In this document: in pieces, positions 12,459 through 60,698 of the stretch
How positions within the stretch are numbered: the stretch's first letter is position 1
Layout of the letters: every line of letters starts with the position of its first letter
Source: Candidatus Magasanikiibacteriota bacterium
GTDB lineage: Bacteria; Patescibacteriota; Patescibacteriia; Magasanikbacterales; UBA922
Length of the DNA stretch: 64,000 nucleotides
Assembly: GCA_049287025.1 (NCBI GenBank)
Contig: JBAQFA010000009.1
Span: 24,802 to 88,801 of the forward strand
Direction: 5' to 3'
Program-made: the position numbers and the translations under genes
The notes under the pieces: generated by a model
What the model was told of the DNA's origin: nothing
Databases searched by the model: none
Seen by the model: only the letters and a program-made list of their open reading frames with translations

Positions 12459-12616
12459 TTAAATCGTAAACTTGACTTATCATATAAAATATAGTATAAA
12501 TGTATGTCCGATAGACTTGTTGTCTGTCGTTTTGGTATATAAGGCAACTTTGCTTTGTTGTTGTGTGTGCTTGAGTGAACAACCATAATCCTTGGATGGG
12601 AGGTGAGACAGGGGAA

Positions 12617-13588
12617 ATGGCAAAGGATCTTTCGGAGAGAAAATTTCGAAGCACCGTGCGGTATGTGCGACGTCTATTGGGGGGTGGGACTGGTATTGTG
12701 ACTGCTCAACAGCTTCAGAAGGCTGGAAAACGAGCTCGCGGTCCTTTCTTTGACCCCAGAGACCATGGTCTGGTTCGTCCGTTCTTGGAGCGTGGAGCCG
12801 AAGAAGGACTCTGGGTGCTTGAGAACGGCGGTGGTCGGGCTGTCGTACCTGATGGTGTGTGGGAACAGTGGGATAGTCGTGGCGAGAGACGGCGTGAGGA
12901 ACGTCAGTCACAAGTTACGGCTCAAGCAGGAACCCGGCCAGCTTCAGTGCTGGCATCACTAGAGGAGGTCTCTATGACCGACGGTACGAAGAAGGGGGTG
13001 GGCGTATCCCCGAAAAATCCTATCTGGGTTTGGCTTCGGGCCAAGAAGGGTAGGTTGGGAGAGCTCATCGAGCTGTTCCAGGGGGTCCATGATGGTGCTC
13101 CGGTTCTCGCCAAGAAGGGTGGGGCTTTGAGTTTCCATTTTGCCCGCCCGCACCTAGTTCGGGGCCTGCAGAAGCTCGGGATGGAGCAGATCGACGATGG
13201 GTCAAAGATCCTGGCCACGGTCTTCTCCTACCTCGCCACGCCTGAGCAGGGGGTATTCGAGCGTGTGGGTTCTGGTGGGTACCCCCGCTACAAGCTCGGG
13301 CCGAAAGGGCAGAAGCTCTTGACCGAGGTCAGGAGCAGGGGCTCTGAGCCCATGCCACCGCCCGTTCCGTCCACGTCACCGACCGCTGCCCCCAGCCCGG
13401 GTGACCCGTTCGCCGAGGAGGAGGCCGCTCTCGTGGCCAAGCTCGAGGCGGTCCGTGCCAAACGCCGGCGCTTCATCGTGGTCGAGGACCTCGTGGTCAA
13501 GGCCATGAAGAAGGCCGGCATCGAGGGGACAGAGCAAGTTGAGTTCCTCAAGGCGCTCGTCAAAAAGCTCGGGGGTTCCTCCGAGTAG
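12617..13588 (+). CDS. Hypothetical protein encoded in a GC-rich foreign island
   Basis: About 323 aa. The segment is roughly 65-70% GC against roughly 38% in the flanks. A strong SD GGGAGGTGA precedes the ATG at 12617. The product has a basic N-terminus, a Pro/Ala-rich linker and a C-terminal helical domain. I recognise no domain. Confidence 0.5.
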   Translation: MAKDLSERKFRSTVRYVRRLLGGGTGIVTAQQLQKAGKRARGPFFDPRDHGLVRPFLERGAEEGLWVLENGGGRAVVPDGVWEQWDSRGERRREERQSQVTAQAGTRPASVLASLEEVSMTDGTKKGVGVSPKNPIWVWLRAKKGRLGELIELFQGVHDGAPVLAKKGGALSFHFARPHLVRGLQKLGMEQIDDGSKILATVFSYLATPEQGVFERVGSGGYPRYKLGPKGQKLLTEVRSRGSEPMPPPVPSTSPTAAPSPGDPFAEEEAALVAKLEAVRAKRRRFIVVEDLVVKAMKKAGIEGTEQVEFLKALVKKLGGSSE

Positions 13589-13795
13589 TCAAATCTCTAG
13601 GCAGTCTTGACTGCCTACGACATCGTTCTTTCAACCTGTCCCGTTCGGGACACCAAAGTCAGGGAAGTGAGTATCACTCCACATCGGAGCGTACCTTCCC
13701 TGGCGCTCCATCAAAAGAACATCTCTAGTTAGGTGTTTTTTTGTTTAACATTGATTTTACAGATTTTAAAAAAGATTTTATTTTATAAAAATTAT

Positions 13796-14527
13796 TTATT
13801 TCAAACTGTTCCACAACATCTCCCAAACAAGACGTTGGTTATCAGCATTGGCTTGGTCTTCAATAATGACTAGGATCATACTCTCCCAAGAAACAGTCAT
13901 TACTCGATTGCCATAAATAACAGTGTGACTTTTGAATGATTTACCTTCGGGTAAAAATTTTACTTCACGTAATTCTTCTGTGGCACGTCTAGCTTCTAAA
14001 ATACCGGATTTGGATTTTTCCACAATTATTTTTGCTTTAACCCCTAATGAAATTCGTTCGTTGGTTAATTTTTTATACTCTTCTGGAAAAGTTGTTAATA
14101 GTTTTTCTGATGAACCATATACCAAATTTTCTTTTAGATTTACTTTGTGTCTAATCCTGTCTAGATAAGCATTCCATACATTTTTTCTACCCTCAAAATA
14201 TAATACTTTTGGTTTGTTGGCACCTTTGTTTTGTAAAGCCTCAAGTTCTGGTATTAGATCAGCAAAAAGTTGCTCTTTGTAACGAAGTGAATCCAAAAAT
14301 TTTTCTGGTTCCATGGCCACAAAATATCTTTTTCTGCCTTTGTTAACCACATTCATTAAGCCTTTAAGAATTAATTTTTCTATAATGTCGTATGTAGTTA
14401 CTCTATGTATGCCGGCTTTTTGAGCAATTGTCTGGACTGAAGCATGACCAAGCTCTAAGGTGGCTAAGTAAATTTCGGCCTCTTTGGCATCTAGACCAAA
14501 TTGTTGTAATTGATTAGGTAAAATCAT
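13796..14527 (-). CDS. TrmB-family wHTH transcriptional regulator (paralog 1)
   Basis: The N-terminus FGLDAKEAEIYLATLELGHASVQTIAQKAGIHRVTTYDIIEKL is a canonical TrmB HTH. It is divergent from the ABC transporter operon. The start is chosen at MILPNQ. Confidence 0.75.
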   Translation of the reverse strand: MILPNQLQQFGLDAKEAEIYLATLELGHASVQTIAQKAGIHRVTTYDIIEKLILKGLMNVVNKGRKRYFVAMEPEKFLDSLRYKEQLFADLIPELEALQNKGANKPKVLYFEGRKNVWNAYLDRIRHKVNLKENLVYGSSEKLLTTFPEEYKKLTNERISLGVKAKIIVEKSKSGILEARRATEELREVKFLPEGKSFKSHTVIYGNRVMTVSWESMILVIIEDQANADNQRLVWEMLWNSLK

Positions 14528-14639
14528 AAAATGTTGTAGGAAAAGTTCTACATTTTTCATTATATCTATTTACAATAAATAAGTCAATCTGCTAATCTAA
14601 TGTAGTATATTATCGACATAATTAATTTAAAATAATACT

Positions 14640-23884: not shown

Positions 23885-23925
23885 AAAAATCCCCCTCTTT
23901 TTTAAAAAAAGAGGGGGATTTAGGT
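23885..23925. terminator. Bidirectional terminator
   Basis: AAATCCCCCTCTTTTTTAAAAAAAGAGGGGGATTT. Confidence 0.6.
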
Positions 23926-23932
23926 AATATAA

Positions 23933-26299
23933 TTATTTTTCTAAGACGGGGTGTTGGCCAAACTGACCACGTAGAGCCGAGACTATTTGGCCAGTATAAT
24001 CTGGATTTTTCTGAGATTGCTTTCTAAATTTGAGTGATTCTTCAATTACTTTGGTCTTTATTTTCATGGCCTTGGCAGTTTTAATGGTCCACTCGCCTTC
24101 TCCAGAATGAGATACTTTACCACTAATTTTTTCTAAATTAGTACCGTAAGTATGAAAGGCTTCATGGAGCCAACCAACCAGACGGGATTCAATTACACTA
24201 CCCTCATTATATATGTCAGCAATGCGGTGTAGATCTAGTTTATAATCAGACTTTTTTAGAACATTAAATCCCTCGCCAATGGCTTGCATCATGCCATACT
24301 CAATTCCATTGTGAATCATTTTTACAAAGTGGCCAGCACCAGCGCCAGAAAAAAACTGATAACCATTCACTTGAGACATGTCTTTAAAAATTGGTTCACA
24401 ATGTTCAAATAATTTTTTCTCCCCGCCGATCATAATGCAGGCGCCATTTCTCGCTCCACCTGGACCACCCGATACCCCAGCATCGAGAAATTTAATACCC
24501 AGCTTTTTTAATTTATTGGCTCGAACAGTCGTATCTTTAAAATATGAATTACCGCCGTCAATAATGATGTCGCCTTTATCTAATTTTTTTACTATTCCTT
24601 CTTTACCAAACAAAGTCTCATCAATTGGTTTGCCATTGGGAAGCATGAGCCAGATAATGCGTGGGCTAGGTAATTTTTTTATCATGTCTTCTAATGAATA
24701 TACCGCGTTCAAATTTTCTTTGGCCATTTGTCTGGTCACTTCAGCGGTGCGATTATAACCAACTACATACCAACCCTTGTCAATTAATCTTCTGGCAAGA
24801 TTGCCACCCATTTTTCCTAAACCAATAATACCAATGCGTTTATTTAGTTTATGTTTTTCTTCTTCTAGAAAATTTTTCGCAGTTTTCGTAATTTCAAAAG
24901 TATCTGGTTTGTAAGTATGGAGTGGAGTTAAATTATTTTTCCAAGCATTAATAATTGGATCAACCACACGCCACATTTGAGCAATTTCGGCATTTCTCAT
25001 AAACCAAGTTTGATTACCAGCAATAGTGTCATGGAGTAATTTGGCGTATTCTTCTACATAGGGCAATTTGGTTTTATTTTTATGCAACATAAAAACAAAT
25101 TCTCGTTTTTCCAATTGCATATCAAAACCAGGTTTTCTTTGCCAAAATTGAATTTTTATTTCTTGCGTGGGGTGAAGTTTAAAAATTATTTTATTTTGCA
25201 CTGGACCAGCCGGTGGGCAAATGCAGGGTTCTGGGTGGCGGAAAGTGACGACAATTTCTTTTTTCACTTGTCCCATCCGTTTGCCACTTTCAATTGTAAT
25301 GGGTACGCCAGTCCAACGCGGTGAATCAAGTTCGGTCTGCCAACGGAAATATGTTTCCACATTAGAATTTTTATTTACCCCAGTAATATTTTTATAACCA
25401 TCATATTGGGCGCGGAAAGTTTTGGTTTTTATATCTTGCAAGCTAGGTTTAATTAATTGTTTCAAAACTTCTGCCCGAGCATTGCGCACTTCTTTGTCAG
25501 TATAGTTAATTGGATGCTCCATAGTTAAGAGCGCGAGAATAGACAGCAAATGGTTTTGTCCGACATCACGCAAAGCCCCGACACTTTCATAAAACGATCC
25601 TCTGGTTTCTACTCCAATTTCCTCCCACAGTTTCATACTAATTCTTTCAATATGCTTGTTGTTCCAAGCGTTTTCAAATAAGCCATTAGAAAAACGGAAA
25701 TTTAATATTCCCTGAACCATTTCTTTACCAAAATAGTGATCAATTCTATAAATTTGTTCACGTTTAAAAACTGATAAAGTTTTTTCTAATTCTTTGGCAG
25801 AGGCACCATCATCACCAAACGGTTTTTCTACAATCACTCTAGCCCAACCAGTACTGTCATCACAGGGCAGATTTAATTTGGTTTCTTTCAATCCCTTGGC
25901 AATCGGTTTGATCATGGCTGGTGGAACAGCTAAGTAATACAATTTGTTAGCACAAATCCCCCATTGATCCTGAATATTTTGAATGTGGCTTTTTAATTCA
26001 GTATAATCTTGCAATTGGGAAAAATCGCCTTGTTCATAATGAAAGAGTTTTAAAAATTTTTCAATTGGTTGTCGGGTTTTAACAAATTCTTTTTCTTTTA
26101 AAATATTAAAAACATGGGTTCTAAATTCTTCATCACTCATTGCTCGGCGGGCAAATCCTAAGACATCAAAATGAACTGGAAGTTTTTTTTGTTTGTATAA
26201 AAAATATAATGAAGGGACAATTTTTTTTGTCATAAGGTCGCCAGTGGCACCAAAAACAGTAAAAATTGTTGGAACATTATCAAAGTATGGTTGTTTCAT
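23933..26299 (-). CDS. Fused glucose-6-phosphate dehydrogenase (N-terminal) and short-type 6-phosphogluconate dehydrogenase (C-terminal)
   Basis: The N-terminal ~480 aa carry G6PD motifs (GATGDL..K, EKPFG, RIDHYFGKE). The C-terminal ~300 aa carry GIIGLGKMGGNLARRL and a GndA-like decarboxylating 6PGDH domain. This is a single uninterrupted 788-aa ORF. Confidence 0.8.
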   Translation of the reverse strand: MKQPYFDNVPTIFTVFGATGDLMTKKIVPSLYFLYKQKKLPVHFDVLGFARRAMSDEEFRTHVFNILKEKEFVKTRQPIEKFLKLFHYEQGDFSQLQDYTELKSHIQNIQDQWGICANKLYYLAVPPAMIKPIAKGLKETKLNLPCDDSTGWARVIVEKPFGDDGASAKELEKTLSVFKREQIYRIDHYFGKEMVQGILNFRFSNGLFENAWNNKHIERISMKLWEEIGVETRGSFYESVGALRDVGQNHLLSILALLTMEHPINYTDKEVRNARAEVLKQLIKPSLQDIKTKTFRAQYDGYKNITGVNKNSNVETYFRWQTELDSPRWTGVPITIESGKRMGQVKKEIVVTFRHPEPCICPPAGPVQNKIIFKLHPTQEIKIQFWQRKPGFDMQLEKREFVFMLHKNKTKLPYVEEYAKLLHDTIAGNQTWFMRNAEIAQMWRVVDPIINAWKNNLTPLHTYKPDTFEITKTAKNFLEEEKHKLNKRIGIIGLGKMGGNLARRLIDKGWYVVGYNRTAEVTRQMAKENLNAVYSLEDMIKKLPSPRIIWLMLPNGKPIDETLFGKEGIVKKLDKGDIIIDGGNSYFKDTTVRANKLKKLGIKFLDAGVSGGPGGARNGACIMIGGEKKLFEHCEPIFKDMSQVNGYQFFSGAGAGHFVKMIHNGIEYGMMQAIGEGFNVLKKSDYKLDLHRIADIYNEGSVIESRLVGWLHEAFHTYGTNLEKISGKVSHSGEGEWTIKTAKAMKIKTKVIEESLKFRKQSQKNPDYTGQIVSALRGQFGQHPVLEK

Positions 26300-26542
26300 A
26301 AATTAGTAATTAGGTTTTAGTAAAACATTCTAATATGGTATGTAATATTATACTTTTATTTTTATCTACAATCAATATGTGGATATGGCATTAGTTGTCC
26401 TTACTTTTTGTAACCAATCCCGATTTTATCGGGACAAACAGTTTCGCCCCCGGACCCCCTTGGTGAGTTTGCTTGGTTTTAATTAATAATAAACCTTACA
26501 AGGTTTATTATGTGTTTCGTGGTTTGTGGTTTGTGGTTTGTG

Positions 26543-27505
26543 TTATTCTACAATTGCTTTCATTTCTTTATTAAATACAGCACTAGCTCGTTTCATGTAA
26601 TCTTCTATATTATCAGCAAAGTATGGTGGATATTGACTTTGAATTTTTCCAATTACATAATAGACTACTGCCATGAGAGTGGCATAGTTGGCATTATTTG
26701 GTAATGGGAAATACAGACGATTTTTTTCTAAGCCGTAATGTTTGTTTTCAATACCAAAACTAATAAATAATTCCGTGTCAGACATAACAACATTTTTGGC
26801 GTGCATACTTTGATCTATAGTAAAAACCCTGCCAGACACTTTTGGTTGAAGGAGTTCATCAAACTTGGTTAAAAACATGTCGCGTATAGCATCAAACCTA
26901 CTCTCAACTAAAATATAGTAAGAATCAAACTTGGAAAAATTGTTAGGGATTAAAGGGTTAATTTTTGTTTTTAAAAAATTATAAATATCTTCAGCGCTTT
27001 CTCCAGTATGTCCTATGATCATCCCCATATAAGTGCTCGTGTTGTAAGTATAAGGTTCTTTGTTTTTCGGAAAGACAAATACTTTGTCGTCATCCAAATA
27101 TTCTTTGGCTGGAGCTTTTGGATTGTTTGTTAGGAGTCTGGTTTCAATATTTTTTTCTTTAAAAAATCTGGCCATCTCAATGGCATGTTTGTCACCAGAA
27201 GCCGAAATCAAAATTATTCCATCAATTCCTTTTATATTCTCAAATTTTTGTTTATAGTCACTCTCATTGGCAAGTATGGCATCACTATTTTCAAATAATA
27301 TTTTGCCAGTAAAAAAAGCATTCACACTACCCACTACCATTGGTCTTTTGTAATTACCCAGATTAAGCTTTGGTACACCTTGAGAGATGAATAATTCTAG
27401 TGCTCCCATGACTGCTACATCTAAATTCGGAATATTTTTTAAAGTAAAATTTTGCATGGTTTGTAAATTTGTCATATTTCTATATTTATTATTTAACCCT
27501 ACCAT
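26543..27505 (-). CDS. Hypothetical protein, possibly a SIS-domain sugar-phosphate isomerase
   Basis: A ..GIILISASGDKHAIEMA.. SIS-like segment is present, in a pentose-phosphate context. The call is weak. Confidence 0.3.
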   Translation of the reverse strand: MVGLNNKYRNMTNLQTMQNFTLKNIPNLDVAVMGALELFISQGVPKLNLGNYKRPMVVGSVNAFFTGKILFENSDAILANESDYKQKFENIKGIDGIILISASGDKHAIEMARFFKEKNIETRLLTNNPKAPAKEYLDDDKVFVFPKNKEPYTYNTSTYMGMIIGHTGESAEDIYNFLKTKINPLIPNNFSKFDSYYILVESRFDAIRDMFLTKFDELLQPKVSGRVFTIDQSMHAKNVVMSDTELFISFGIENKHYGLEKNRLYFPLPNNANYATLMAVVYYVIGKIQSQYPPYFADNIEDYMKRASAVFNKEMKAIVE

Positions 27506-28373: not shown

Positions 28374-29123
28374 TTATTTTATCTCTGGGCAATGATCCCA
28401 CATAAATTTAAACCAGGTTTTATAGCTAGTGGCCAGTGGACGACTAATATTTACAAAAATGGTAATATCGTCACTAATCTTTGTTATTCCGGCGCCAGTA
28501 AAAGACACAACATGATCACCAAAAATGTCTACCATTGAAGGCGTAGAATATTCTTTAGGTAGGTATTTGTAAGGTTTACCTACGGCTTTTGGTACATGAG
28601 GAGCTTGTTTTAGTACTTCAAAATCAAATAAATGTTTATATTTAATACCTCGACGATCCGCATCAACTAAAAATTTATCCAAAAAGGTATTGAGTCTTGG
28701 GTCGAACCAGGCTCCCTTGGCGCCAATACAATAAACATCTTCTTTAGTAGATAATACATCACGAAGAAAATTTTTAAATCCTTCCAGACCTTTATATATG
28801 TAGGCAGCCTCTAAAACAGGATGTTTTTGGTATTCGTGCATCAAGTGTGGCATTTCTTTTTCTAGCCTAGTACGTTTTTCATCAACCAGTTCCATTAGCT
28901 TGGCTGGTTCCACTGGTTTAAATAAAGTGTCGCCATGCCCAATAACTTGAAACACTAAACCTTTTTCAATTAAGCGATTCATTGAGTCATAAATATTCCG
29001 GCGATGAATTTTACTTTTTTTTGAAATATTAGAAACCGTAGTTTGTTTTTCTTGTAAAAGTGTTTCGTAAATTTTGGCTTCGTTTATTGACAATCCTAGT
29101 TCTGTTAAAATTTGGCTATACAT
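28374..29123 (-). CDS. TrmB-family regulator paralog A. Its C-terminus is divergent or truncated.
   Basis: N-terminus LGLSINEAKIYETLLQEKQTTVSNISKKSKIHRRNIYDSMNRLIEKGLV. The Lys-rich tail seen in paralogs B and C lies after an in-frame TAA stop. The gene is immediately adjacent to tRNA-Arg. Confidence 0.7.
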   Translation of the reverse strand: MYSQILTELGLSINEAKIYETLLQEKQTTVSNISKKSKIHRRNIYDSMNRLIEKGLVFQVIGHGDTLFKPVEPAKLMELVDEKRTRLEKEMPHLMHEYQKHPVLEAAYIYKGLEGFKNFLRDVLSTKEDVYCIGAKGAWFDPRLNTFLDKFLVDADRRGIKYKHLFDFEVLKQAPHVPKAVGKPYKYLPKEYSTPSMVDIFGDHVVSFTGAGITKISDDITIFVNISRPLATSYKTWFKFMWDHCPEIK

Positions 29124-30254: not shown

Positions 30255-31049
30255 TTATTTTTTCTTTTTGGCAAGTTGAGAGAGTGGTACGGCCGTATTC
30301 CAAGCTAGTTCATATAGCGCTTTTAGAATTTTTACCAAAGATGTACTTTCTATCATTACACCAATTTTGTGTGGTTTATGAGTGACGAAGACAATTTTTG
30401 ATTCAAAAATATTAATTTCACCAAAAAAGTCCTCAATTCCTGGTAGTTGATTAGGTTTAAGCCATTTAATATGAGTATAAGTCATTGATCCTTTATAATT
30501 CGTCATCCAAGTTCTAGCTGTAGGTGTATCCAAAGCAATAATACGTTCATGAATTTTACGTTTACTGCGTTCACGATTATAGCCTTCACCCCAAGTTTTG
30601 AATTCCGGCCAACTCCAGCCTTCAAAATCGGCAATAGAAAGAATTTCGGTTTTTGAATCTAAGCTCTCCCAATAAATATTTTTTAAACCCTGGGTACCTT
30701 CTTGATATTTGATAACTGGCTTTTCGGCAAACTTATAAATCGAAAATAATTTTGGTAAAACTTTTTCTACATTTAATAATTTATCTTCCCATTGCTTTTT
30801 TTTGTTTTTAATATGTTGAACCAGACGCCCTGGATTTTCCGAAGTATAAATCATTTTCGATCCTTTGCCAGTCGCGCGATCTACCAAACCATACCAACCT
30901 AACTTTTCCAAAGCATAATAACCAAGCGTTCGGTTGATACCAGCTTTTTTGGTTATCTCGGCTACAGTAGCAGGACCAAGTTCGAGCAAGGCTAAATATA
31001 CTTTGCCTTCGGTTTCATCTAAACCTAATTGACTGATTAAATCTTTCAT
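30255..31049 (-). CDS. TrmB-family regulator paralog B
   Basis: N-terminus LGLDETEGKVYLALLELGPATVAEITKKAGINRTLGYYALEKLGWYGLV. The C-terminus is ..ILKALYELAWNTA..LAKKKK. Confidence 0.75.
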   Translation of the reverse strand: MKDLISQLGLDETEGKVYLALLELGPATVAEITKKAGINRTLGYYALEKLGWYGLVDRATGKGSKMIYTSENPGRLVQHIKNKKKQWEDKLLNVEKVLPKLFSIYKFAEKPVIKYQEGTQGLKNIYWESLDSKTEILSIADFEGWSWPEFKTWGEGYNRERSKRKIHERIIALDTPTARTWMTNYKGSMTYTHIKWLKPNQLPGIEDFFGEINIFESKIVFVTHKPHKIGVMIESTSLVKILKALYELAWNTAVPLSQLAKKKK

Positions 31050-31928: not shown

Positions 31929-32732
31929 TTATTTTTTCTTTTTACTAGTTTTAGCAAGCGGTGTAGCTGTAATCCACGCCAGTTCAAAAATCGCTTTTAA
32001 AATATTAGATAAAGCCGTGCTTTCTATAATTATGCCAATAGGGATTGGTTTCTTGAATAAAGCCATCATTACTTTATTATCATAAATATTAATTTCACCA
32101 CCTAAATCTTTGATAGTTGGTACTTGTTCGGGTTTTATCCAGCGATAATTAATATATTTTTTTGATCCTTGATAATGTTTCATCCAATCTCTTCCTTCGG
32201 GTGTATCTAAAACCAAAACGCGTTCAGAAATTTTTCTTTTACTACGTTCGCGGGTATATTCTTTGCCCCATTTAAAAAGATTAAACTCTGGTGTATACCA
32301 AGCTTGCAAATCCAAGACTGATAAAATTTCTGATTTGGCTTCTAAAGTTTCCCAATAAATATTTTTGGCACCCTCAACACCTTCTTGAAATCTAACGCTG
32401 GGTTTTTCGGCCACGGTATAGAGTAAATAAAAATCTGGCAATTGTGATTCTAATTCTTTTTCTTTTCTTTCCCAAGTATTAATTTTTGATTTTACAAAAT
32501 GTTTTAAATTTTTGGGATCTTTGGCTACAAATTGAATGCGTTTCTTTTGTCCAGAAGAACGATTGACTAGGCCAAACCAACCAAGTTTTTCTAGGGCATG
32601 ATAACAAAGGGTGTGACCAATGCCAGCTTTGCGGGCAATGGCGCTGGCGCCAGAAGGTCCAAGTTGTAAAAGGGCAATATAGACTTTGGCTTCTGTTTCT
32701 TCAAAGCCAATGCTTTTAAGAATTTCTAACAT
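31929..32732 (-). CDS. TrmB-family regulator paralog C
   Basis: N-terminus IGFEETEAKVYIALLQLGPSGASAIARKAGIGHTLCYHALEKLGWFGLV. The C-terminus is ..ILKAIFELAWITA..KKKK. Confidence 0.75.
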   Translation of the reverse strand: MLEILKSIGFEETEAKVYIALLQLGPSGASAIARKAGIGHTLCYHALEKLGWFGLVNRSSGQKKRIQFVAKDPKNLKHFVKSKINTWERKEKELESQLPDFYLLYTVAEKPSVRFQEGVEGAKNIYWETLEAKSEILSVLDLQAWYTPEFNLFKWGKEYTRERSKRKISERVLVLDTPEGRDWMKHYQGSKKYINYRWIKPEQVPTIKDLGGEINIYDNKVMMALFKKPIPIGIIIESTALSNILKAIFELAWITATPLAKTSKKKK

Positions 32733-48974: not shown

Positions 48975-49763
48975 ATGGAAAAAAATAATTTAGAAAAATT
49001 AATAGATTTGGGTCTACAAGAAAATGAAGCCAAAATATATTTGGCTTTGTTGGAATTGGGAAAAGGCAATGTGACCGAAATTAGTCGGCGCGCAGGATTG
49101 AACCGGACGACGGGTTATGATATTTTGGAACGTCTTGGTTTACATGGTATGGTGAACCGCGCCAGAGTGGGTAGTAAAAAAATTATTTATGTGGCCGAAC
49201 CGCCATCACATTTGCGTCAGTACTTGGAAGACAAAAAACGCGCCATGGAAAGACGGATGGAAGAATTAAATGATTTGTTGCCAGATTTGCAATCACTTTA
49301 TAAAACTGATATTAAACCAGTTATAAAATTTGCCGAAGGGAAAAGTGAAATGCAAAAATTGTATTTGAATGTTTTGGATGCGAAGAGTGAAGTTTATTCA
49401 ATTCTTAATTTAAAAGGTTATGCCGAAGTTTTTGATGAACTGGGTGCTTATCAATCCAAAGAACGACATAAAAAAGGCATAAAAGAAAAAGTTTTGGCTA
49501 TAAAAAATGATACCGCTCTGTGGTGGTATAATAAAACTTATAAAAATAAAACTGCCAAGGATAAAAAGTTAACCGAATATCGCTGGCTAGAAGATGCGGA
49601 AAAGTATTCTACCGCCGGAGAAGTAAATATTTTTGATGATAAAGTAATTGGTGTATTATCCAAACCAAGTGAAAATGTGGCATTTGAAATTCAATCACAG
49701 ACATTTGCGGATTTTTTGAAATTAGTTTTTGAAATGGCGTGGAAGAATAGTGAACAAAAATAA
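48975..49763 (+). CDS. TrmB-family regulator paralog D
   Basis: N-terminus LGLQENEAKIYLALLELGKGNVTEISRRAGLNRTTGYDILERLGLHGMV. The C-terminus is ..FLKLVFEMAWKNS. It is divergent from cassettes 6-7. Confidence 0.75.
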   Translation: MEKNNLEKLIDLGLQENEAKIYLALLELGKGNVTEISRRAGLNRTTGYDILERLGLHGMVNRARVGSKKIIYVAEPPSHLRQYLEDKKRAMERRMEELNDLLPDLQSLYKTDIKPVIKFAEGKSEMQKLYLNVLDAKSEVYSILNLKGYAEVFDELGAYQSKERHKKGIKEKVLAIKNDTALWWYNKTYKNKTAKDKKLTEYRWLEDAEKYSTAGEVNIFDDKVIGVLSKPSENVAFEIQSQTFADFLKLVFEMAWKNSEQK

Positions 49764-58804: not shown

Positions 58805-60442
58805 ATGACAACCACACAAGATTTGTACAAAATGATCGGAACTGCACAACAGCAGGAAGAAGATAAGGATGACGTTTCAAAATATCGATACGTTATTTAT
58901 GCTCGAAAATCTACAGATGATAAAGAAAAACAAATCAGATCATTAGGTGATCAAATTAAAGAATGTAAGGATTATGCTGAAAGAAATGGACTTAGATGTT
59001 TACCGAAACCAATAACGGAGTCAGAGTCTGCCAAGGAACCAGACATAAGGCCAGAGTTTAAGAAATTAATTGATGACATTAAAAAAGCTAAATATGATGG
59101 TATTTTGGCTTGGCATCCAGACCGTTTGGCCAGAAATATGAAGGATGCTGGAGAGATAATAGATCTGTTGGATAAAAAGATAGTGAAAGACCTAAAATTC
59201 GTAACATTTACGTTTGAGAACAATACAATGGGTAAAATGTTGTTAGGGATGGCTTTCGTGCTGTCTAAGCAGTATTCTGACGCTTTAAGTGATAATGTAA
59301 AACGAGGAACAAGTAGAAGTATTGAAGAAGGTAGATGGTTGAACAAAGCTAAACATGGTTATTATAAAGATCGTAATCAAATACTGCATCCAGATGGTAG
59401 ATTTTTTAATCTGATTGAGAATATTTTTAGGATGAGAATAGATAATAAAAGTTTGGATGATATAGCTGATTATTTGAATGAAAATAGATATTGTTGTGCC
59501 CCACCTTCTAAGAATGAAGCTGACCGTAGCCCATTTCAAATGACCAAACAGATCGTCTCTAAAATTGTGAGAGACCCATTTTACACTGGCATTCTTAAGT
59601 ATGGAGAAAACAAGGTTGATTTAACTGAAATTTATGACTTTACTCCTGCTGTAAGTGTGGATGATTTTCTGAAAATAAACAACTTTTCTGATATTGAAAA
59701 AGCTCTAAAATTAACTGGAAAAATTTATAAAGACAACGCAATCAAGGCAGATTTGATGAGAGGAATGATAATTTGTGGTGAATGTGATGGAAGTATGACA
59801 TCTGGAATTACTCCTAAAAAAACAAAAAATGGTAAAACTAATTATTTTTATTACAGATGTGATAACCCTGTTTGTAAAAATAAAGGTAAGTCTATAAGGG
59901 CAAAAGTAATTATTGACTTTGCCTGTCAATATTTGGAAAAAAACAAATTTACCTCTCATTCTATATATGGGCATTATATCCAAGAAATGAAAAAAGTTGT
60001 AATGGAAAAAGAGAGGTCTCTCATACAAAAAATTCGTTCATTGACGGAGACCAGAGTACACAAAAAAAATCAATTTGAAAAGACAAAAAAATCTCTTATA
60101 CAAGAGACTGACGAAGACATCAAGGGTTTTTTTAAGGAAGATTTGAAACAATTAGAAAAGGACATCAATAATTTAGAAACCGAAATAGATGAATTGAAAG
60201 ATGAGAAAGAAAGAAATAATAGCGTCACGCTGACTTACTCAGAATACCTTGAACTGTTCAATAATTTAGCTGAGCGTATTAAAAAAATAGGCGTTATGGA
60301 AGACCTAAATTTTATAATGAAAAAAATCTTCTTGAACTTTACTATAAAAGAGGGAAAAGTGGCTCTATATACACTAAACTCCCCATTCGGGGAGTTCGTG
60401 AAAGACCGTATTGTCTTGACATGTCGGGGTGAAAGGACTTGA
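58805..60442 (+). CDS. Large serine recombinase with resolvase N-terminus, recombinase domain, zinc ribbon and coiled coil
   Basis: YVIYARKSTDDKEKQIRSLGDQI places the catalytic Ser in a resolvase-type N-terminal domain. The central recombinase domain has a Cys cluster (CGECDG..C..C). The C-terminal coiled coil is typical of phiC31/TnpX-type integrases. Confidence 0.85.
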   Translation: MTTTQDLYKMIGTAQQQEEDKDDVSKYRYVIYARKSTDDKEKQIRSLGDQIKECKDYAERNGLRCLPKPITESESAKEPDIRPEFKKLIDDIKKAKYDGILAWHPDRLARNMKDAGEIIDLLDKKIVKDLKFVTFTFENNTMGKMLLGMAFVLSKQYSDALSDNVKRGTSRSIEEGRWLNKAKHGYYKDRNQILHPDGRFFNLIENIFRMRIDNKSLDDIADYLNENRYCCAPPSKNEADRSPFQMTKQIVSKIVRDPFYTGILKYGENKVDLTEIYDFTPAVSVDDFLKINNFSDIEKALKLTGKIYKDNAIKADLMRGMIICGECDGSMTSGITPKKTKNGKTNYFYYRCDNPVCKNKGKSIRAKVIIDFACQYLEKNKFTSHSIYGHYIQEMKKVVMEKERSLIQKIRSLTETRVHKKNQFEKTKKSLIQETDEDIKGFFKEDLKQLEKDINNLETEIDELKDEKERNNSVTLTYSEYLELFNNLAERIKKIGVMEDLNFIMKKIFLNFTIKEGKVALYTLNSPFGEFVKDRIVLTCRGERT

Positions 60443-60497
60443 ACCTTCGGCCTCCTGGTCCCAAACCAGGCGCTCTAGCCAACTGAGCTACACCCCG
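60424..60497 (-). tRNA. tRNA-Pro(TGG)
   Basis: Acceptor CGGGGTG/CACCCCG, anticodon loop TTTGGGA, T-loop GGTTCAAGTCC. Its 3' end overlaps the recombinase stop region. Confidence 0.75.
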
Positions 60498-60542
60498 TTA
60501 AAGTTATAAAGTTGAAAGTTTTAAAGTTCAAAAAAATAACTT

Positions 60543-60616
60543 GGTGCCGAGGGCCAGGATCGAACTGGCGACACGTGGATTTTCAGTCCACTGCTCTACC
60601 ACTGAGCTACCTCGGC
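60543..60616 (-). tRNA. tRNA-Phe(GAA) with CCA encoded
   Basis: GCCGAGGTAGCTCAGTGGTAGAGC.., anticodon loop CTGAAAA, ..GTTCGATCCTGGCCCTCGGCACCA. Confidence 0.8.
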
Positions 60617-60624
60617 TTGTTTTG

Positions 60625-60698
60625 TGGACCTGAGGAGATTCGAACTCCTGACCCCCTGCTTGCAAAGCAGGTGCTCTAGCCAGCTGAGCTACAGGCCC
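60625..60698 (-). tRNA. tRNA-Ala(TGC)
   Basis: GGGCCTGTAGCTCAGCTGG.., anticodon loop TTTGCAA, G3:U70, discriminator A. Confidence 0.8.

What the first reader, a model, noticed from the sequence alone, without database searches (positions are those of the whole stretch)
23933..26299. Zwf and Gnd fused in one 788-aa polypeptide
A single uninterrupted ORF carries a complete glucose-6-phosphate dehydrogenase (GATGDL, EKPFG, RIDHYFGKE) followed by a short-type 6-phosphogluconate dehydrogenase (GIIGLGKMGGNLARRL...). A fusion of the first and third oxidative pentose-phosphate enzymes is uncommon. If no separate 6-phosphogluconolactonase exists, it suggests a streamlined NADPH-generating module.
Basis: partly seen in the sequence, partly recalled or inferred. 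Interest (0 to 1): 0.5.

Follow-up and report, generated by a model that had tools for sequence, protein, structure and literature searches.

The report
Fused Zwf–Gnd enzyme of CPR bacteria
One gene in this tiny-genome (Patescibacteria/CPR) bacterium really does encode the first and third enzymes of the oxidative pentose-phosphate pathway as a single protein, but this fusion is typical of that bacterial group and has already been noted in print, so it is a tidy confirmation rather than a discovery.

Summary
Window 23933..26299 (-) is one uninterrupted 788-aa ORF. Residues 11-485 pass the curated equivalog cut-off for Zwf (G6PDH). Residues 488-785 pass those for short-chain 6-phosphogluconate dehydrogenase. 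A variable linker of about 20 residues joins them.

It is not an assembly artefact. The identical protein is in NCBI (a Candidatus Magasanikiibacteriota MAG). At least 119 distinct full-length homologs (52-79 % identity) come from independent assemblies; the named ones are almost all CPR lineages, plus one DPANN archaeon. Every catalytic and substrate-binding residue checked is invariant or nearly so in both halves. The Gnd half carries the NADP-type N-R-T fingerprint and a free C-terminal RX2FGXH tail.

Outside CPR, the same two genes are separate and in the opposite order (gnd→zwf→pgl). Unfused zwf→gnd(→pgl) operons exist in some CPR. No lactonase gene lies in the 64-kb window or near any fusion examined, but CPR-type Pgl genes exist elsewhere, so a lactonase-free pathway is unproven.

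A 2024 paper (PMC11237513) already reports this G6pd-Pgd fusion in Diapherotrites and 60 candidate-phyla assemblies. A diatom analogue was described in 2011. Verdict: real, probably a bifunctional NADPH/ribulose-5-P-producing enzyme, biochemically uncharacterised, already known. Low-to-moderate interest.

The parts
23933..26299 (-). Complete zwf-gnd fusion ORF, 788 aa plus stop codon (23933-23935)
   Evidence: ORF. (identical to the NCBI protein 'MAG: glucose-6-phosphate dehydrogenase [Candidatus Magasanikiibacteriota bacterium]' on a 148,561-bp contig).
24905..26299 (-). Zwf (G6PDH) half, residues 1-465. Contains G6PD_N (res 15-196, nt 25712-26257) and G6PD_C (res 200-483). Key residues: GATGDL 17-22, R51, EKPFG 158-162, D187/H188/Y189/K192, H250, K340.
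   Evidence: TIGR00871 above cut-off. (alignment to L. mesenteroides G6PD 1DPG). (residue conservation in 119 homologs). (Foldseek TM 0.90 to 1E77).
24839..24904 (-). Inter-enzyme linker, residues ~466-487. Poorly conserved and variable in length; predicted as a helix (469-480) followed by a short coil.
   Evidence: spacing between Y463 and G490 equivalents is 20-53 residues, mode 26-29. (AF2 secondary structure; pLDDT dips to ~78).
23936..24838 (-). Short-chain Gnd (6PGDH) half, residues 488-788. Contains NAD_binding_2 (488-643) and the single 6PGD helical hemi-domain (656-765). Key residues: GLGKMG 493-498, N516-R517-T518, N584/S585, K660/H663/N664/E667.
   Evidence: TIGR00872 and NF007161 above cut-off. 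(best PDB matches are the short-chain 6PGDHs 10GW/6XEQ, 6VPB, 8IHE, 4E21)..
23951..23971 (-). C-terminal RX2FGXH substrate-binding motif (R777, F780, G781, H783), five residues from the free C-terminus
   Evidence: R, F, G and H each 119/119. (the motif and its role in tetrameric short-chain 6PGDH, bioRxiv 10.64898/2026.01.21.700892).
26347..26375 (-). Sigma-70-like promoter candidate (TTGATT-17-TATAAT), ending ~48 nt upstream of the ATG
   Evidence: This is a consensus match only.
23887..23921 (-). Intrinsic-terminator-like hairpin (16-bp stem, T-tract), starting 12 nt after the stop codon
   Evidence: This is a consensus match only.

Best explanation
The ORF encodes a genuine bifunctional enzyme of the oxidative pentose-phosphate pathway.

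The N-terminal Zwf half oxidises glucose-6-phosphate to 6-phosphoglucono-delta-lactone and reduces NADP+. The lactone is then hydrolysed outside either active site, either spontaneously or by a separately encoded lactonase. The C-terminal short-chain Gnd half oxidatively decarboxylates 6-phosphogluconate to ribulose-5-phosphate plus CO2 and reduces a second NADP+.

The fusion therefore gives fixed 1:1 stoichiometry, co-expression from one small transcription unit, and co-localisation of the two NADPH-producing steps in a very small cell. It does not give direct channelling, because the two reactions are not consecutive.

Short-chain 6PGDHs work as tetramers in which a neighbour's free C-terminal helix and tail complete the active site. 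The Zwf-N / Gnd-C order keeps that tail free, and the holoenzyme is probably a tetramer (a dimer of Zwf-type dimers).

The gene belongs to a CPR-type zwf→gnd lineage. In that lineage, loss of the stop codon between adjacent same-direction genes produced the fusion once or a few times, and it then spread within CPR and into DPANN archaea.

Shown: the architecture, the intact catalytic residues, the NADP-type fingerprint, the distribution, and the gene-order contrast. Inferred: enzyme activities, cofactor preference, oligomeric state, how the lactone step is handled, and physiological role (NADPH for thiol-redox and reductive needs, and Ru5P entry into the non-oxidative PPP that CPR use).
For: Architecture and family membership.

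Both halves are under purifying selection. Zwf residues G17, T19, G20, E158, K159, P160, G162, H188, Y189, K192, D245, N249, H250, G339 and K340, and Gnd residues G493, L494, G495, G498, N584, D606, G608, S610-G612, H657, F658, K660, M661, H663, E667, R777, F780, G781 and H783, are each 119/119 (D187 is 118/119).

The residues map onto catalytic residues of L. mesenteroides G6PD and of solved short-chain 6PGDHs.

NADP-type fingerprint: N516 is 107/119, R517 is 92/119 plus K in 14, T/S518 is 106/119. The NAD+-dependent Gnd2 (8IHE) has D-H-D at this position.

Confident model: pLDDT 90.1, pTM 0.78, with TM 0.90 to 1E77.

No room for a third domain: only residues 1-14, 484-487 and 766-788 lie outside Pfam matches.

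The fusion is real and widespread: >=119 full-length homologs; ~14 full-length or near-full-length fusion representatives at 50 % clustering; independent contigs, including a 1.23-Mb chromosome and an archaeal contig.

Precursor state: L008 has zwf-TAA-12 nt-ATG-gnd in the same frame, followed by pgl. L091 has zwf/gnd overlapping by 4 nt within a full PPP operon.

Fused and unfused CPR-type genes form one clade that excludes non-CPR genes, and the two halves co-diverge with r = 0.62.

Own promoter-like and terminator-like sites. Prior report of the same fusion.
Against: No biochemical data exist for any member. Cofactor preference is inferred from a fingerprint only, and NCBIfam TIGR00872 is named 'NAD(+)-dependent'. 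About 10 % of fusions have Asp or another residue at the Asn position.

Oligomeric state and inter-domain geometry were not tested (a monomer model only, no PAE available).

Fusing enzymes 1 and 3 gives no obvious kinetic benefit unless the lactone step is fast, and the fate of the lactone is unknown.

The NJ analysis did not recover the fusions as an exclusive clade: 8 unfused Gnd and 24 stand-alone Zwf sequences (some probably fragments) fall inside it, with bootstrap 0/100 for strict monophyly. The number of fusion and fission events is therefore unresolved.
Confidence: 0.85

Rival explanations
1. Assembly or sequencing artefact: two adjacent genes (zwf, then gnd) were merged because a stop codon or frameshift at the junction was lost in this MAG.
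For: Unfused same-order, same-frame neighbours do exist in some CPR genomes, separated by only 12 nt (L008) or overlapping by 4 nt (L091). A single error could therefore mimic a fusion. The diatom G6PD-6PGD fusion was itself disputed by annotators.
Against: >=119 full-length fusions at 52-79 % identity come from independent assemblies and sources. These include a closed-looking 1.23-Mb contig and an archaeal contig. The linker varies in sequence and length but never carries a stop. No ATG equivalent to the L008 gnd start is present in the window protein.
Confidence: 0.01
2. Lactonase-free streamlined module. In genomes with the fusion there is no Pgl, and the bifunctional enzyme relies on spontaneous hydrolysis of the delta-lactone. 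Alternatively, the assembly itself promotes hydrolysis next to the Gnd site.
For: No PF01182-type Pgl was found in the 64-kb window or within 6-10 kb of the fusion in L001-L007, L009 and L087. By contrast, pgl is adjacent to zwf in 45 of the non-CPR loci (E <= 1e-10) and in both unfused CPR operons. None of the 120 best CPR-type Pgl hits lies on a contig whose length matches a long fusion-bearing contig; the one apparent match, P0510, turned out to be a different contig. The fusion is a stand-alone transcription unit.
Against: Only 64 kb of this genome was visible. Only the best 120 of 985 Pgl hits were listed. YbhE-type (beta-propeller) lactonases were checked only through Pfam scans of window ORFs of 150 aa or more. 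CPR genomes do encode DevB-type Pgl, and a patescibacterial preprint lists Pgl alongside G6PD. There is no extra domain or insertion in the fusion that could provide lactonase activity.
Confidence: 0.3
3. The enzyme is NAD+-linked or dual-cofactor. It would then serve catabolic NADH production, as in some short-chain 6PGDHs, rather than NADPH supply.
For: The best-scoring equivalog for the Gnd half besides NF007161 is TIGR00872, named 'NAD(+)-dependent'. The closest solved structures include NAD+-dependent Gnd2 (8IHE). The Zwf half has Thr in GATGDL, like the dual-specificity L. mesenteroides enzyme. Some fusions and many unfused relatives have Asp at the discriminating position.
Against: The window protein and ~90 % of fusions have Asn-Arg/Lys-Thr/Ser at the end of beta-2. 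This is the 2'-phosphate-binding triad of NADP-specific 6PGDH (Adams et al. 1994, cited; recalled knowledge). Enzymes labelled NAD-dependent have Asp there. Zwf R51, equivalent to L. mesenteroides Arg46, is conserved in 110/119.
Confidence: 0.15
4. One half is a non-catalytic, regulatory or structural remnant (a pseudo-enzyme), or the Gnd-like half is a different beta-hydroxyacid dehydrogenase.
For: The Gnd half also gives weak hits to tartronate semialdehyde reductase and HIBADH models. These share the fold.
Against: Those hits are far below their cut-offs (about 94 bits against 340), while both 6PGDH models are above theirs. The 6PG-specific RX2FGXH motif and the Lys/Asn/Glu catalytic set are invariant. 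All Zwf catalytic residues are invariant.
Confidence: 0.03

Closest known systems
G6pd-Pgd fusion reported in Diapherotrites (DPANN) and '60 bacterial candidate phyla assemblies' (mSystems 2024, PMC11237513, cluster 1367)
   Same: Same architecture and same family. The Diapherotrites protein recovered here (P0095, on an archaeal contig with fibrillarin, Nop and TFIIE-alpha) is 54 % identical over the full length to the window protein and up to 63 % identical to other fusions.
   Different: Nothing substantive; the window gene is another member. The paper gives one sentence. It offers no residue analysis, cofactor inference, gene-order comparison or biochemistry.
G6PD::6PGD fusion of the diatom Phaeodactylum tricornutum (Stover, Dixon & Cavalcanti 2011, PMC3148214)
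   Same: Same two enzymes, same N-to-C order, and a short in-frame junction (39 nt).
   Different: It is eukaryotic and restricted to one species and its close relatives. Its annotation is disputed, and that genome also has separate 6PGD copies and a 6PGL. Whether its 6PGD half is long- or short-chain is unknown to me.
G6PD::6PGL bifunctional enzymes (Plasmodium GluPho, Giardia/Trichomonas, metazoan H6PD)
   Same: A PPP fusion involving G6PD. The proposed benefit is co-expression and handling of the labile lactone. A bacterial-type Zwf-Pgl fusion also exists in the databases (P0259).
   Different: Those join consecutive steps 1 and 2. The window protein has no Glucosamine_iso/lactonase domain and instead joins steps 1 and 3.
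Stand-alone Zwf (e.g. L. mesenteroides G6PD, 1DPG/1E77) and stand-alone tetrameric short-chain 6PGDH (G. oxydans 10GW/6XEQ, G. diazotrophicus 6VPB, M. tuberculosis Gnd2 8IHE/9IJB, Geobacter 4E21)
   Same: Each half has the complete fold, motifs and catalytic residues of these enzymes.
   Different: The halves are covalently joined. The Gnd half lacks the ~20-residue insertion that the solved short-chain enzymes have after the Rossmann domain. It also has the NADP-type N-R-T where they have Asp.
Split zwf/gnd operons: CPR-type zwf→gnd(→tkt)→pgl (L008 Moraniibacteriota, L091 Patescibacteria), and gnd→zwf→pgl in Chloroflexota, Actinomycetota, Chlorobi/Ignavibacteria, Acidobacteriota, Binatia and Bacteroidota
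   Same: Homologous genes that are physically adjacent. The CPR-type split genes fall in the same clade as the fusions.
   Different: They are separate polypeptides with pgl in the operon. In non-CPR phyla the order is reversed, so read-through there would bury the Gnd C-terminal tail.

Membership tests
Glucose-6-phosphate dehydrogenase (Zwf; TIGR00871, Pfam G6PD_N + G6PD_C) | Scores above the curated equivalog/gathering cut-offs over the full model length | tested here: met
   TIGR00871 442.8 bits against cut-off 400.6, model positions 3-483 of 486. G6PD_N 188.5 bits, G6PD_C 257.4 bits.
Glucose-6-phosphate dehydrogenase (Zwf; TIGR00871, Pfam G6PD_N + G6PD_C) | GxxGDL dinucleotide fingerprint, EKPxG, the RIDHYLGKE active-site peptide (Asp177/His178/Lys182 of L. 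mesenteroides) and the catalytic His240 equivalent | tested here: met
   GATGDL 17-22, EKPFG 158-162, RIDHYFGKE 185-193, H250. Aligned to 1DPG and invariant or nearly so in 119 homologs.
Glucose-6-phosphate dehydrogenase (Zwf; TIGR00871, Pfam G6PD_N + G6PD_C) | Catalyses G6P + NAD(P)+ → 6-phosphogluconolactone + NAD(P)H | not testable with these tools
   Requires an enzyme assay.
Short-chain (tetrameric) 6-phosphogluconate dehydrogenase (TIGR00872 / NF007161) | Scores above the curated cut-offs. About 300 residues with a single helical hemi-domain, not the duplicated C-terminal domain of ~470-aa enzymes. | tested here: met
   TIGR00872 336.9 bits against 297.2; NF007161 352.9 against 271. The long-chain models TIGR00873 and NF006765 score far below their cut-offs. 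The Pfam 6PGD match covers only positions 1-116 of 290. The best PDB hits are the short-chain enzymes.
Short-chain (tetrameric) 6-phosphogluconate dehydrogenase (TIGR00872 / NF007161) | Catalytic Lys/Asn/Glu in GHFVKMVHNGIEYG, and the C-terminal RX2FGXH 6PG-binding motif near a free C-terminus | tested here: met
   K660, H663, E667, R777, F780, G781 and H783 are each 119/119, and N664 is 118/119. The motif is defined in bioRxiv 10.64898/2026.01.21.700892. H783 lies 5 residues from the C-terminus.
Short-chain (tetrameric) 6-phosphogluconate dehydrogenase (TIGR00872 / NF007161) | Homotetrameric assembly with the active site completed by a neighbouring subunit | not testable with these tools
   Only a monomer model was made. 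This needs SEC-MALS, cryo-EM or a multimer prediction.
CPR/DPANN G6pd-Pgd fusion family (PMC11237513) | A single ORF with Zwf at the N-terminus and short-chain Gnd at the C-terminus, orthologous to the Diapherotrites and candidate-phyla proteins | tested here: met
   Full-length 52-79 % identity to >=119 proteins with the same four Pfam domains, including the Diapherotrites protein P0095.
G6PD::6PGL bifunctional enzymes (GluPho / H6PD type) | Presence of a 6-phosphogluconolactonase (Glucosamine_iso, PF01182) domain fused to G6PD | tested here: not met
   No PF01182 hit in the protein. No unassigned segment is long enough to hold one. tblastn with a Pgl domain finds nothing in the window.
Diatom G6PD::6PGD fusion (Phaeodactylum) | Common descent with XP_002183714.1 | not tested
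No protein of that kind appeared among the best 150 representatives.

The most novel reading that the evidence does not exclude
In CPR genomes that carry the fusion, the oxidative pentose-phosphate branch runs without any dedicated lactonase. The fused tetramer itself would make this workable, for example by holding the delta-lactone near the Gnd sites long enough to hydrolyse, or through a latent lactone-hydrolysing or lactone-accepting activity. That would be a two-gene-to-one, three-step-to-one-protein pathway compaction specific to ultra-small cells.
Probability: 0.1. Interest if true: 0.6.

Novelty: already known. Interest (0 to 1): 0.27.

Why it matters
The practical value lies in annotation and metabolic reconstruction. 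Where a source gives a name, it is almost always just 'glucose-6-phosphate dehydrogenase' or 'hypothetical protein', so the 6PGDH activity is easily missed and the oxidative PPP of CPR bacteria can be scored as incomplete. One patescibacterial preprint lists G6PD twice and no 6PGDH, although I could not confirm that a fusion is the cause.

If the enzyme is active as inferred, a subset of CPR and DPANN organisms can make 2 NADPH plus ribulose-5-P from G6P with one gene. This feeds the non-oxidative PPP that CPR are thought to use around missing glycolytic steps.

The 1+3 'skip-step' fusion, the opposite gene order in other phyla and the free-tail requirement of short-chain 6PGDH together make a neat, testable case of how quaternary-structure constraints may dictate which gene orders can fuse. 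It is not a new kind of system.

Tried and rejected
1. The upstream 320-aa ORF (26543..27505) as a conserved partner or hidden lactonase/PGI. It shows no sequence similarity to the bact-PGI_C gene that precedes the fusion in L004. It is adjacent to the fusion only in Magasanikbacteria: L087 yes; P0272's contig and the Woesearchaeota locus L088 no. Its fold is double-SIS, not lactonase. I rejected it as part of the feature and logged it as a side observation.

2. Strict single origin of the fusion. NJ trees with 100 bootstraps did not recover exclusive monophyly. I claim only a shared CPR-type clade.

3. Exhaustive phylogenetic distribution from genome contigs. It was useful for the gene-order contrast but not for counting.

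4. Pgl on the same contigs as fusions, by matching contig lengths. The only apparent match (P0510, 17,969 bp) was a different contig with no fusion.

5. The Foldseek afdb50 library was unavailable. The first NJ attempt and the first MAFFT run timed out.

6. Maturana et al. 2021 on 6PGDH cofactor preference is not held in the library. The N-R-T determinant therefore rests on recalled knowledge plus the comparison.

7. The GC-rich island at 12.7-13.6 kb and the GC-rich gap in L001 share no similarity and have no Rfam match.

8. Early literature searches with CPR/zwf/gnd/fusion terms found nothing. The relevant sentence surfaced only with the 'oxidative branch' query.
Full report
**1. Observation**

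The window contains a single ATG-started ORF on the minus strand, 23933..26299, 788 aa, with no internal stop.

Pfam places G6PD_N at 15-196, G6PD_C at 200-483, NAD_binding_2 at 488-643 and the 6PGD helical domain at 656-765. The curated NCBIfam equivalog for Zwf (TIGR00871) is passed: 442.8 bits against a cut-off of 400.6, residues 11-485. Both short-chain 6PGDH models are passed for residues 488-785: TIGR00872 at 336.9 against 297.2, and NF007161 at 352.9 against 271. The long-chain Gnd models score far below their cut-offs.

**2. The fusion is not an artefact**

The identical protein is in NCBI as 'MAG: glucose-6-phosphate dehydrogenase [Candidatus Magasanikiibacteriota bacterium]' on a 148,561-bp contig. 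The 120 best database hits are, with one truncated exception, full-length proteins of 779-836 aa. They carry the same four Pfam domains at 52-79 % identity and come from NCBI, JGI, ENA and Logan assemblies.

Named sources include Magasanik-, Buchanan-, Peregrini-, Levy-, Harrison-, Kaiser-, Portnoy- and Taylor-bacteria, Parcubacteria and 'Patescibacteria group', plus one 'Diapherotrites archaeon'. Contexts fetched for several of them show ordinary CPR neighbourhoods, including a 1.23-Mb contig. The Diapherotrites protein sits on a genuinely archaeal contig with fibrillarin, Nop and TFIIE-alpha.

The rest of the window fits a CPR chromosome near its origin: dnaA, dnaN, H+-PPase, ftsK, recA, ychF, polA, five TrmB-type regulators, ~35 % GC. 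In an exhaustive search of 1.84 billion 50 %-identity representatives, about 14 full-length or near-full-length fusion representatives appear (P0121-P0124, P0126-P0129, P0131-P0133, P0139). They are followed by stand-alone Zwf (36-52 %) and stand-alone short Gnd (49-58 %). The family is therefore compact.

**3. Anatomy and inferred chemistry**

*Conservation.* Alignment of 119 fusions shows that every catalytic or substrate-binding residue I checked is invariant or nearly so in both halves.
- Zwf: the GATGDL fingerprint, R51 (equivalent to L. mesenteroides Arg46), EKPFG, D187/H188/Y189/K192, D245/N249/H250 and K340. These were mapped by alignment to L. mesenteroides G6PD.
- Gnd: GLGxMG, N584/S585, S610-G612, K660/H663/N664/E667, and the C-terminal R777-x-x-F780-G781-x-H783.

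*The C-terminal tail.* That last motif is the RX2FGXH element. It was recently shown to complete the active site of a neighbouring protomer in tetrameric short-chain 6PGDHs, with the His essential for catalysis. In the fusion it lies five residues from the free C-terminus.

*The linker.* Residues ~466-487 are poorly conserved and vary in length; the spacing between the Y463 and G490 equivalents is 20-53 residues. An AlphaFold2 model is confident (mean pLDDT 90.1, pTM 0.78) and predicts a linker helix at 469-480. The Zwf part superposes on 1E77 with TM 0.90. No segment is left that could hold a third (lactonase) domain.

*Cofactor.* The Gnd half has N516-R517-T518 at the end of beta-2. This N-R/K-T/S pattern is present in ~90 % of fusions. 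The solved short-chain enzymes have Asp there, including the one labelled NAD+-dependent (8IHE). Unfused relatives are mixed. From recalled knowledge (Adams et al. 1994, sheep 6PGDH Asn32/Arg33/Thr34), this triad binds the 2'-phosphate of NADP+, so NADP+ preference is the best inference but is untested.

**4. Mechanism**

The most likely function is a bifunctional G6PDH/6PGDH that makes two NADPH, CO2 and ribulose-5-phosphate per G6P. The two reactions are not consecutive, so the fusion cannot channel its own product. The delta-lactone must be hydrolysed in between, spontaneously or by a separate Pgl.

What the fusion does guarantee is 1:1 stoichiometry and co-expression. The gene has its own sigma-70-like promoter candidate ~48 nt upstream and a strong terminator-like hairpin 12 nt after the stop. 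These are consensus matches only.

Short-chain 6PGDHs need a free C-terminal tail and a tetrameric assembly. The Zwf-N/Gnd-C order is the one that leaves this tail free, so a tetrameric holoenzyme is plausible. This step is inference.

**5. Evolutionary context**

In Chloroflexota, Actinomycetota, Chlorobi/Ignavibacteria, Acidobacteriota, Binatia and Bacteroidota, the homologous genes are separate ORFs in the opposite order (gnd→zwf). A DevB-type pgl lies next to zwf in 45 such loci.

*Single-ORF fusions.* Zwf→Gnd fusions were found only in L001-L007 and L009. L007 is labelled 'uncultured Gammaproteobacteria' (53 % GC), but its protein is 52-54 % identical to CPR fusions. I could not verify its taxonomy.

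*Unfused CPR loci.* Two CPR loci show the unfused same-order state. L008 (Moraniibacteriota) has zwf-TAA, 12 nt, ATG-gnd in the same frame, followed by pgl. L091 has a complete operon, zwf-gnd (4-nt overlap)-tkt-LOG-pgl-tal-pgi.

*Trees.* In NJ trees of each half, fused and unfused CPR-type sequences share a clade that excludes all non-CPR sequences. The fusions are not exclusively monophyletic (0/100 bootstraps). Pairwise distances of the two halves among fusions are correlated (r = 0.62). This fits one or a few stop-loss fusions, and possibly fissions, within a CPR zwf→gnd lineage, followed by transfer into DPANN. The archaeal protein is up to 63 % identical to other fusions.

*Other PPP fusions.* Other PPP fusions exist in the databases: PGI-Gnd (P0218), Zwf-Pgl (P0259) and Gnd_N-Zwf (P0264).

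**6. The lactonase question**

No PF01182-like sequence occurs in the 64-kb window or within the flanks of any fusion locus, and Pfam scans of window ORFs of 150 aa or more show no lactonase family. However, CPR-type Pgl genes form a sizeable family (985 hits; Uhrbacteria, Paceibacterota and others). They are sometimes next to tal (L090) or within the split operon (L091). The remainder of this genome could not be searched. The 'lactonase-free streamlined module' is therefore possible (I give it ~0.3 for absence of Pgl, and ~0.1 for any special compensating property) but unproven.

In three relatives, thiol-redox or NADPH-related genes are nearby:
- L004: thioredoxin, glutaredoxin, peroxiredoxin, DsbD and a Pyr_redox_2 flavoprotein.
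- L001: NAD(P)HX epimerase and DsbD.
- L003: RibD_C.

The pattern is anecdotal, but it is consistent with an NADPH-supply role.

**7. Comparison with the literature**

Stover et al. 2011 (PMC3148214) described G6PD::6PGL fusions in several eukaryotes and a G6PD::6PGD fusion in Phaeodactylum tricornutum. At that time they found no other such fusion in nr.

[quoted passage not shown] That is this family.

I found no biochemical or structural characterisation, and no discussion of domain order, cofactor type or pgl context. A patescibacterial preprint lists 'glucose-6-phosphate dehydrogenase' twice and no 6PGDH. This may illustrate how the usual product name could hide the Gnd half.

**8. Verdict**

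The feature is real and almost certainly a functional bifunctional enzyme. It is typical of CPR/Patescibacteria, already deposited and already noted in print. Novelty: already known. Interest is low to moderate. The residual open points are the fate of the lactone, the oligomeric state, and why steps 1 and 3 are fused. All are testable but not surprising to a specialist.

Noticed in passing
window 26543-27505 (-); NCBI start gives 26543-27475, 310 aa: The gene immediately upstream of the fusion (243-nt gap, same strand) is a 'hypothetical protein' from a large, well-conserved family. The family has 881 hits, members of ~310 aa at 45-70 % identity, and occurs in CPR plus Woese-/Pacearchaeota. 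It has no Pfam or NCBIfam assignment. Its AF2 model (pLDDT 95, pTM 0.93) has a double-SIS phosphosugar isomerase/deaminase fold: best PDB matches are 2AML, the GlmS isomerase domain 1MOQ, and NagB-II 2CB0/3HBA, at 10-16 % identity. Invariant motifs include GS-N, SASG-K, EPYTYN-S-Y and K-F-E...H. Its substrate is unknown. It is adjacent to the fusion only in Magasanikbacteria (L087), not in P0272's contig or in Woesearchaeota (L088).
   Followed up: partly
window 12700-13600 (ORF 12575-13588, +): A sharp GC-rich island (58-65 % GC in a ~35 % GC genome), just downstream of the H+-PPase gene. It holds one 337-aa GTG-started ORF with ordinary protein-like composition and no Pfam hit. There is no Rfam match, even at E <= 1. 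The RNA fold z-score is -4.7, which is expected for GC-rich sequence. It is probably a horizontally acquired high-GC gene, or a chimeric assembly piece.
   Followed up: partly
window 13796-14560 (-), 28374-29123 (-), 30255-31049 (-), 31929-32732 (-), 48975-49763 (+): Five paralogous ~250-aa TrmB-family (sugar-specific transcriptional regulator) genes lie within 64 kb. Three are clustered at 28-33 kb, in a slightly GC-richer stretch with several ORFs that have no family match. TrmB genes also recur near the fusion or the hyp310 gene in relatives (L003, L088).
   Followed up: no
window 58805-60442 (+) and tRNAs at 60423-60698 (-): A 545-aa large serine recombinase (Resolvase + Recombinase + Zn_ribbon_recom) ends 20 nt inside a tRNA-Pro/Phe/Ala cluster. 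Just upstream are the lowest-GC stretch of the window (56-58 kb, 29 % GC) and several ORFs with no family match. This may be an integrated mobile element at a tRNA site.
   Followed up: no
L001 9000-9990: In the 1.23-Mb relative, a ~1-kb gene-less, GC-rich (52 % against 38 %) gap lies directly upstream of the fusion gene. It has no long ORF and no similarity to the window's GC island. It could be a structured RNA or a degraded insert, and it was not searched against Rfam.
   Followed up: partly
P0218, P0259, P0264, P0140: Other pentose-phosphate fusions exist in the protein universe: PGI-short Gnd (735 aa), Zwf-Pgl (768 aa), and Gnd NAD-binding domain-Zwf (606 aa). There is also a Zwf with an unassigned ~420-aa C-terminal extension (868 aa).
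   Followed up: partly
L004 4689-8474 and 12451-13947; L001 6781-8379; L003 12426-13031: Thiol-redox or NADPH-linked genes cluster around the fusion in some relatives. They include glutaredoxin, peroxiredoxin/thioredoxin, DsbD, a 498-aa pyridine-nucleotide disulfide oxidoreductase directly downstream, NAD(P)HX epimerase, and RibD_C reductase. The pattern is anecdotal but consistent with an NADPH-supply role.
   Followed up: no
L007 (CAYIQM010000003.1): A full-length fusion (808-aa ORF as listed by the ORF listing; 52-54 % identical to CPR fusions) sits on a 53 %-GC contig binned as 'uncultured Gammaproteobacteria bacterium', next to a P-type ATPase. It is either a mis-binned contig or a rare occurrence outside CPR.
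   Followed up: partly
bioRxiv 10.1101/2024.03.08.584096: [quoted passage not shown] This may be a consequence of fusion proteins being named only G6PD by annotation pipelines. I did not verify it.
   Followed up: no
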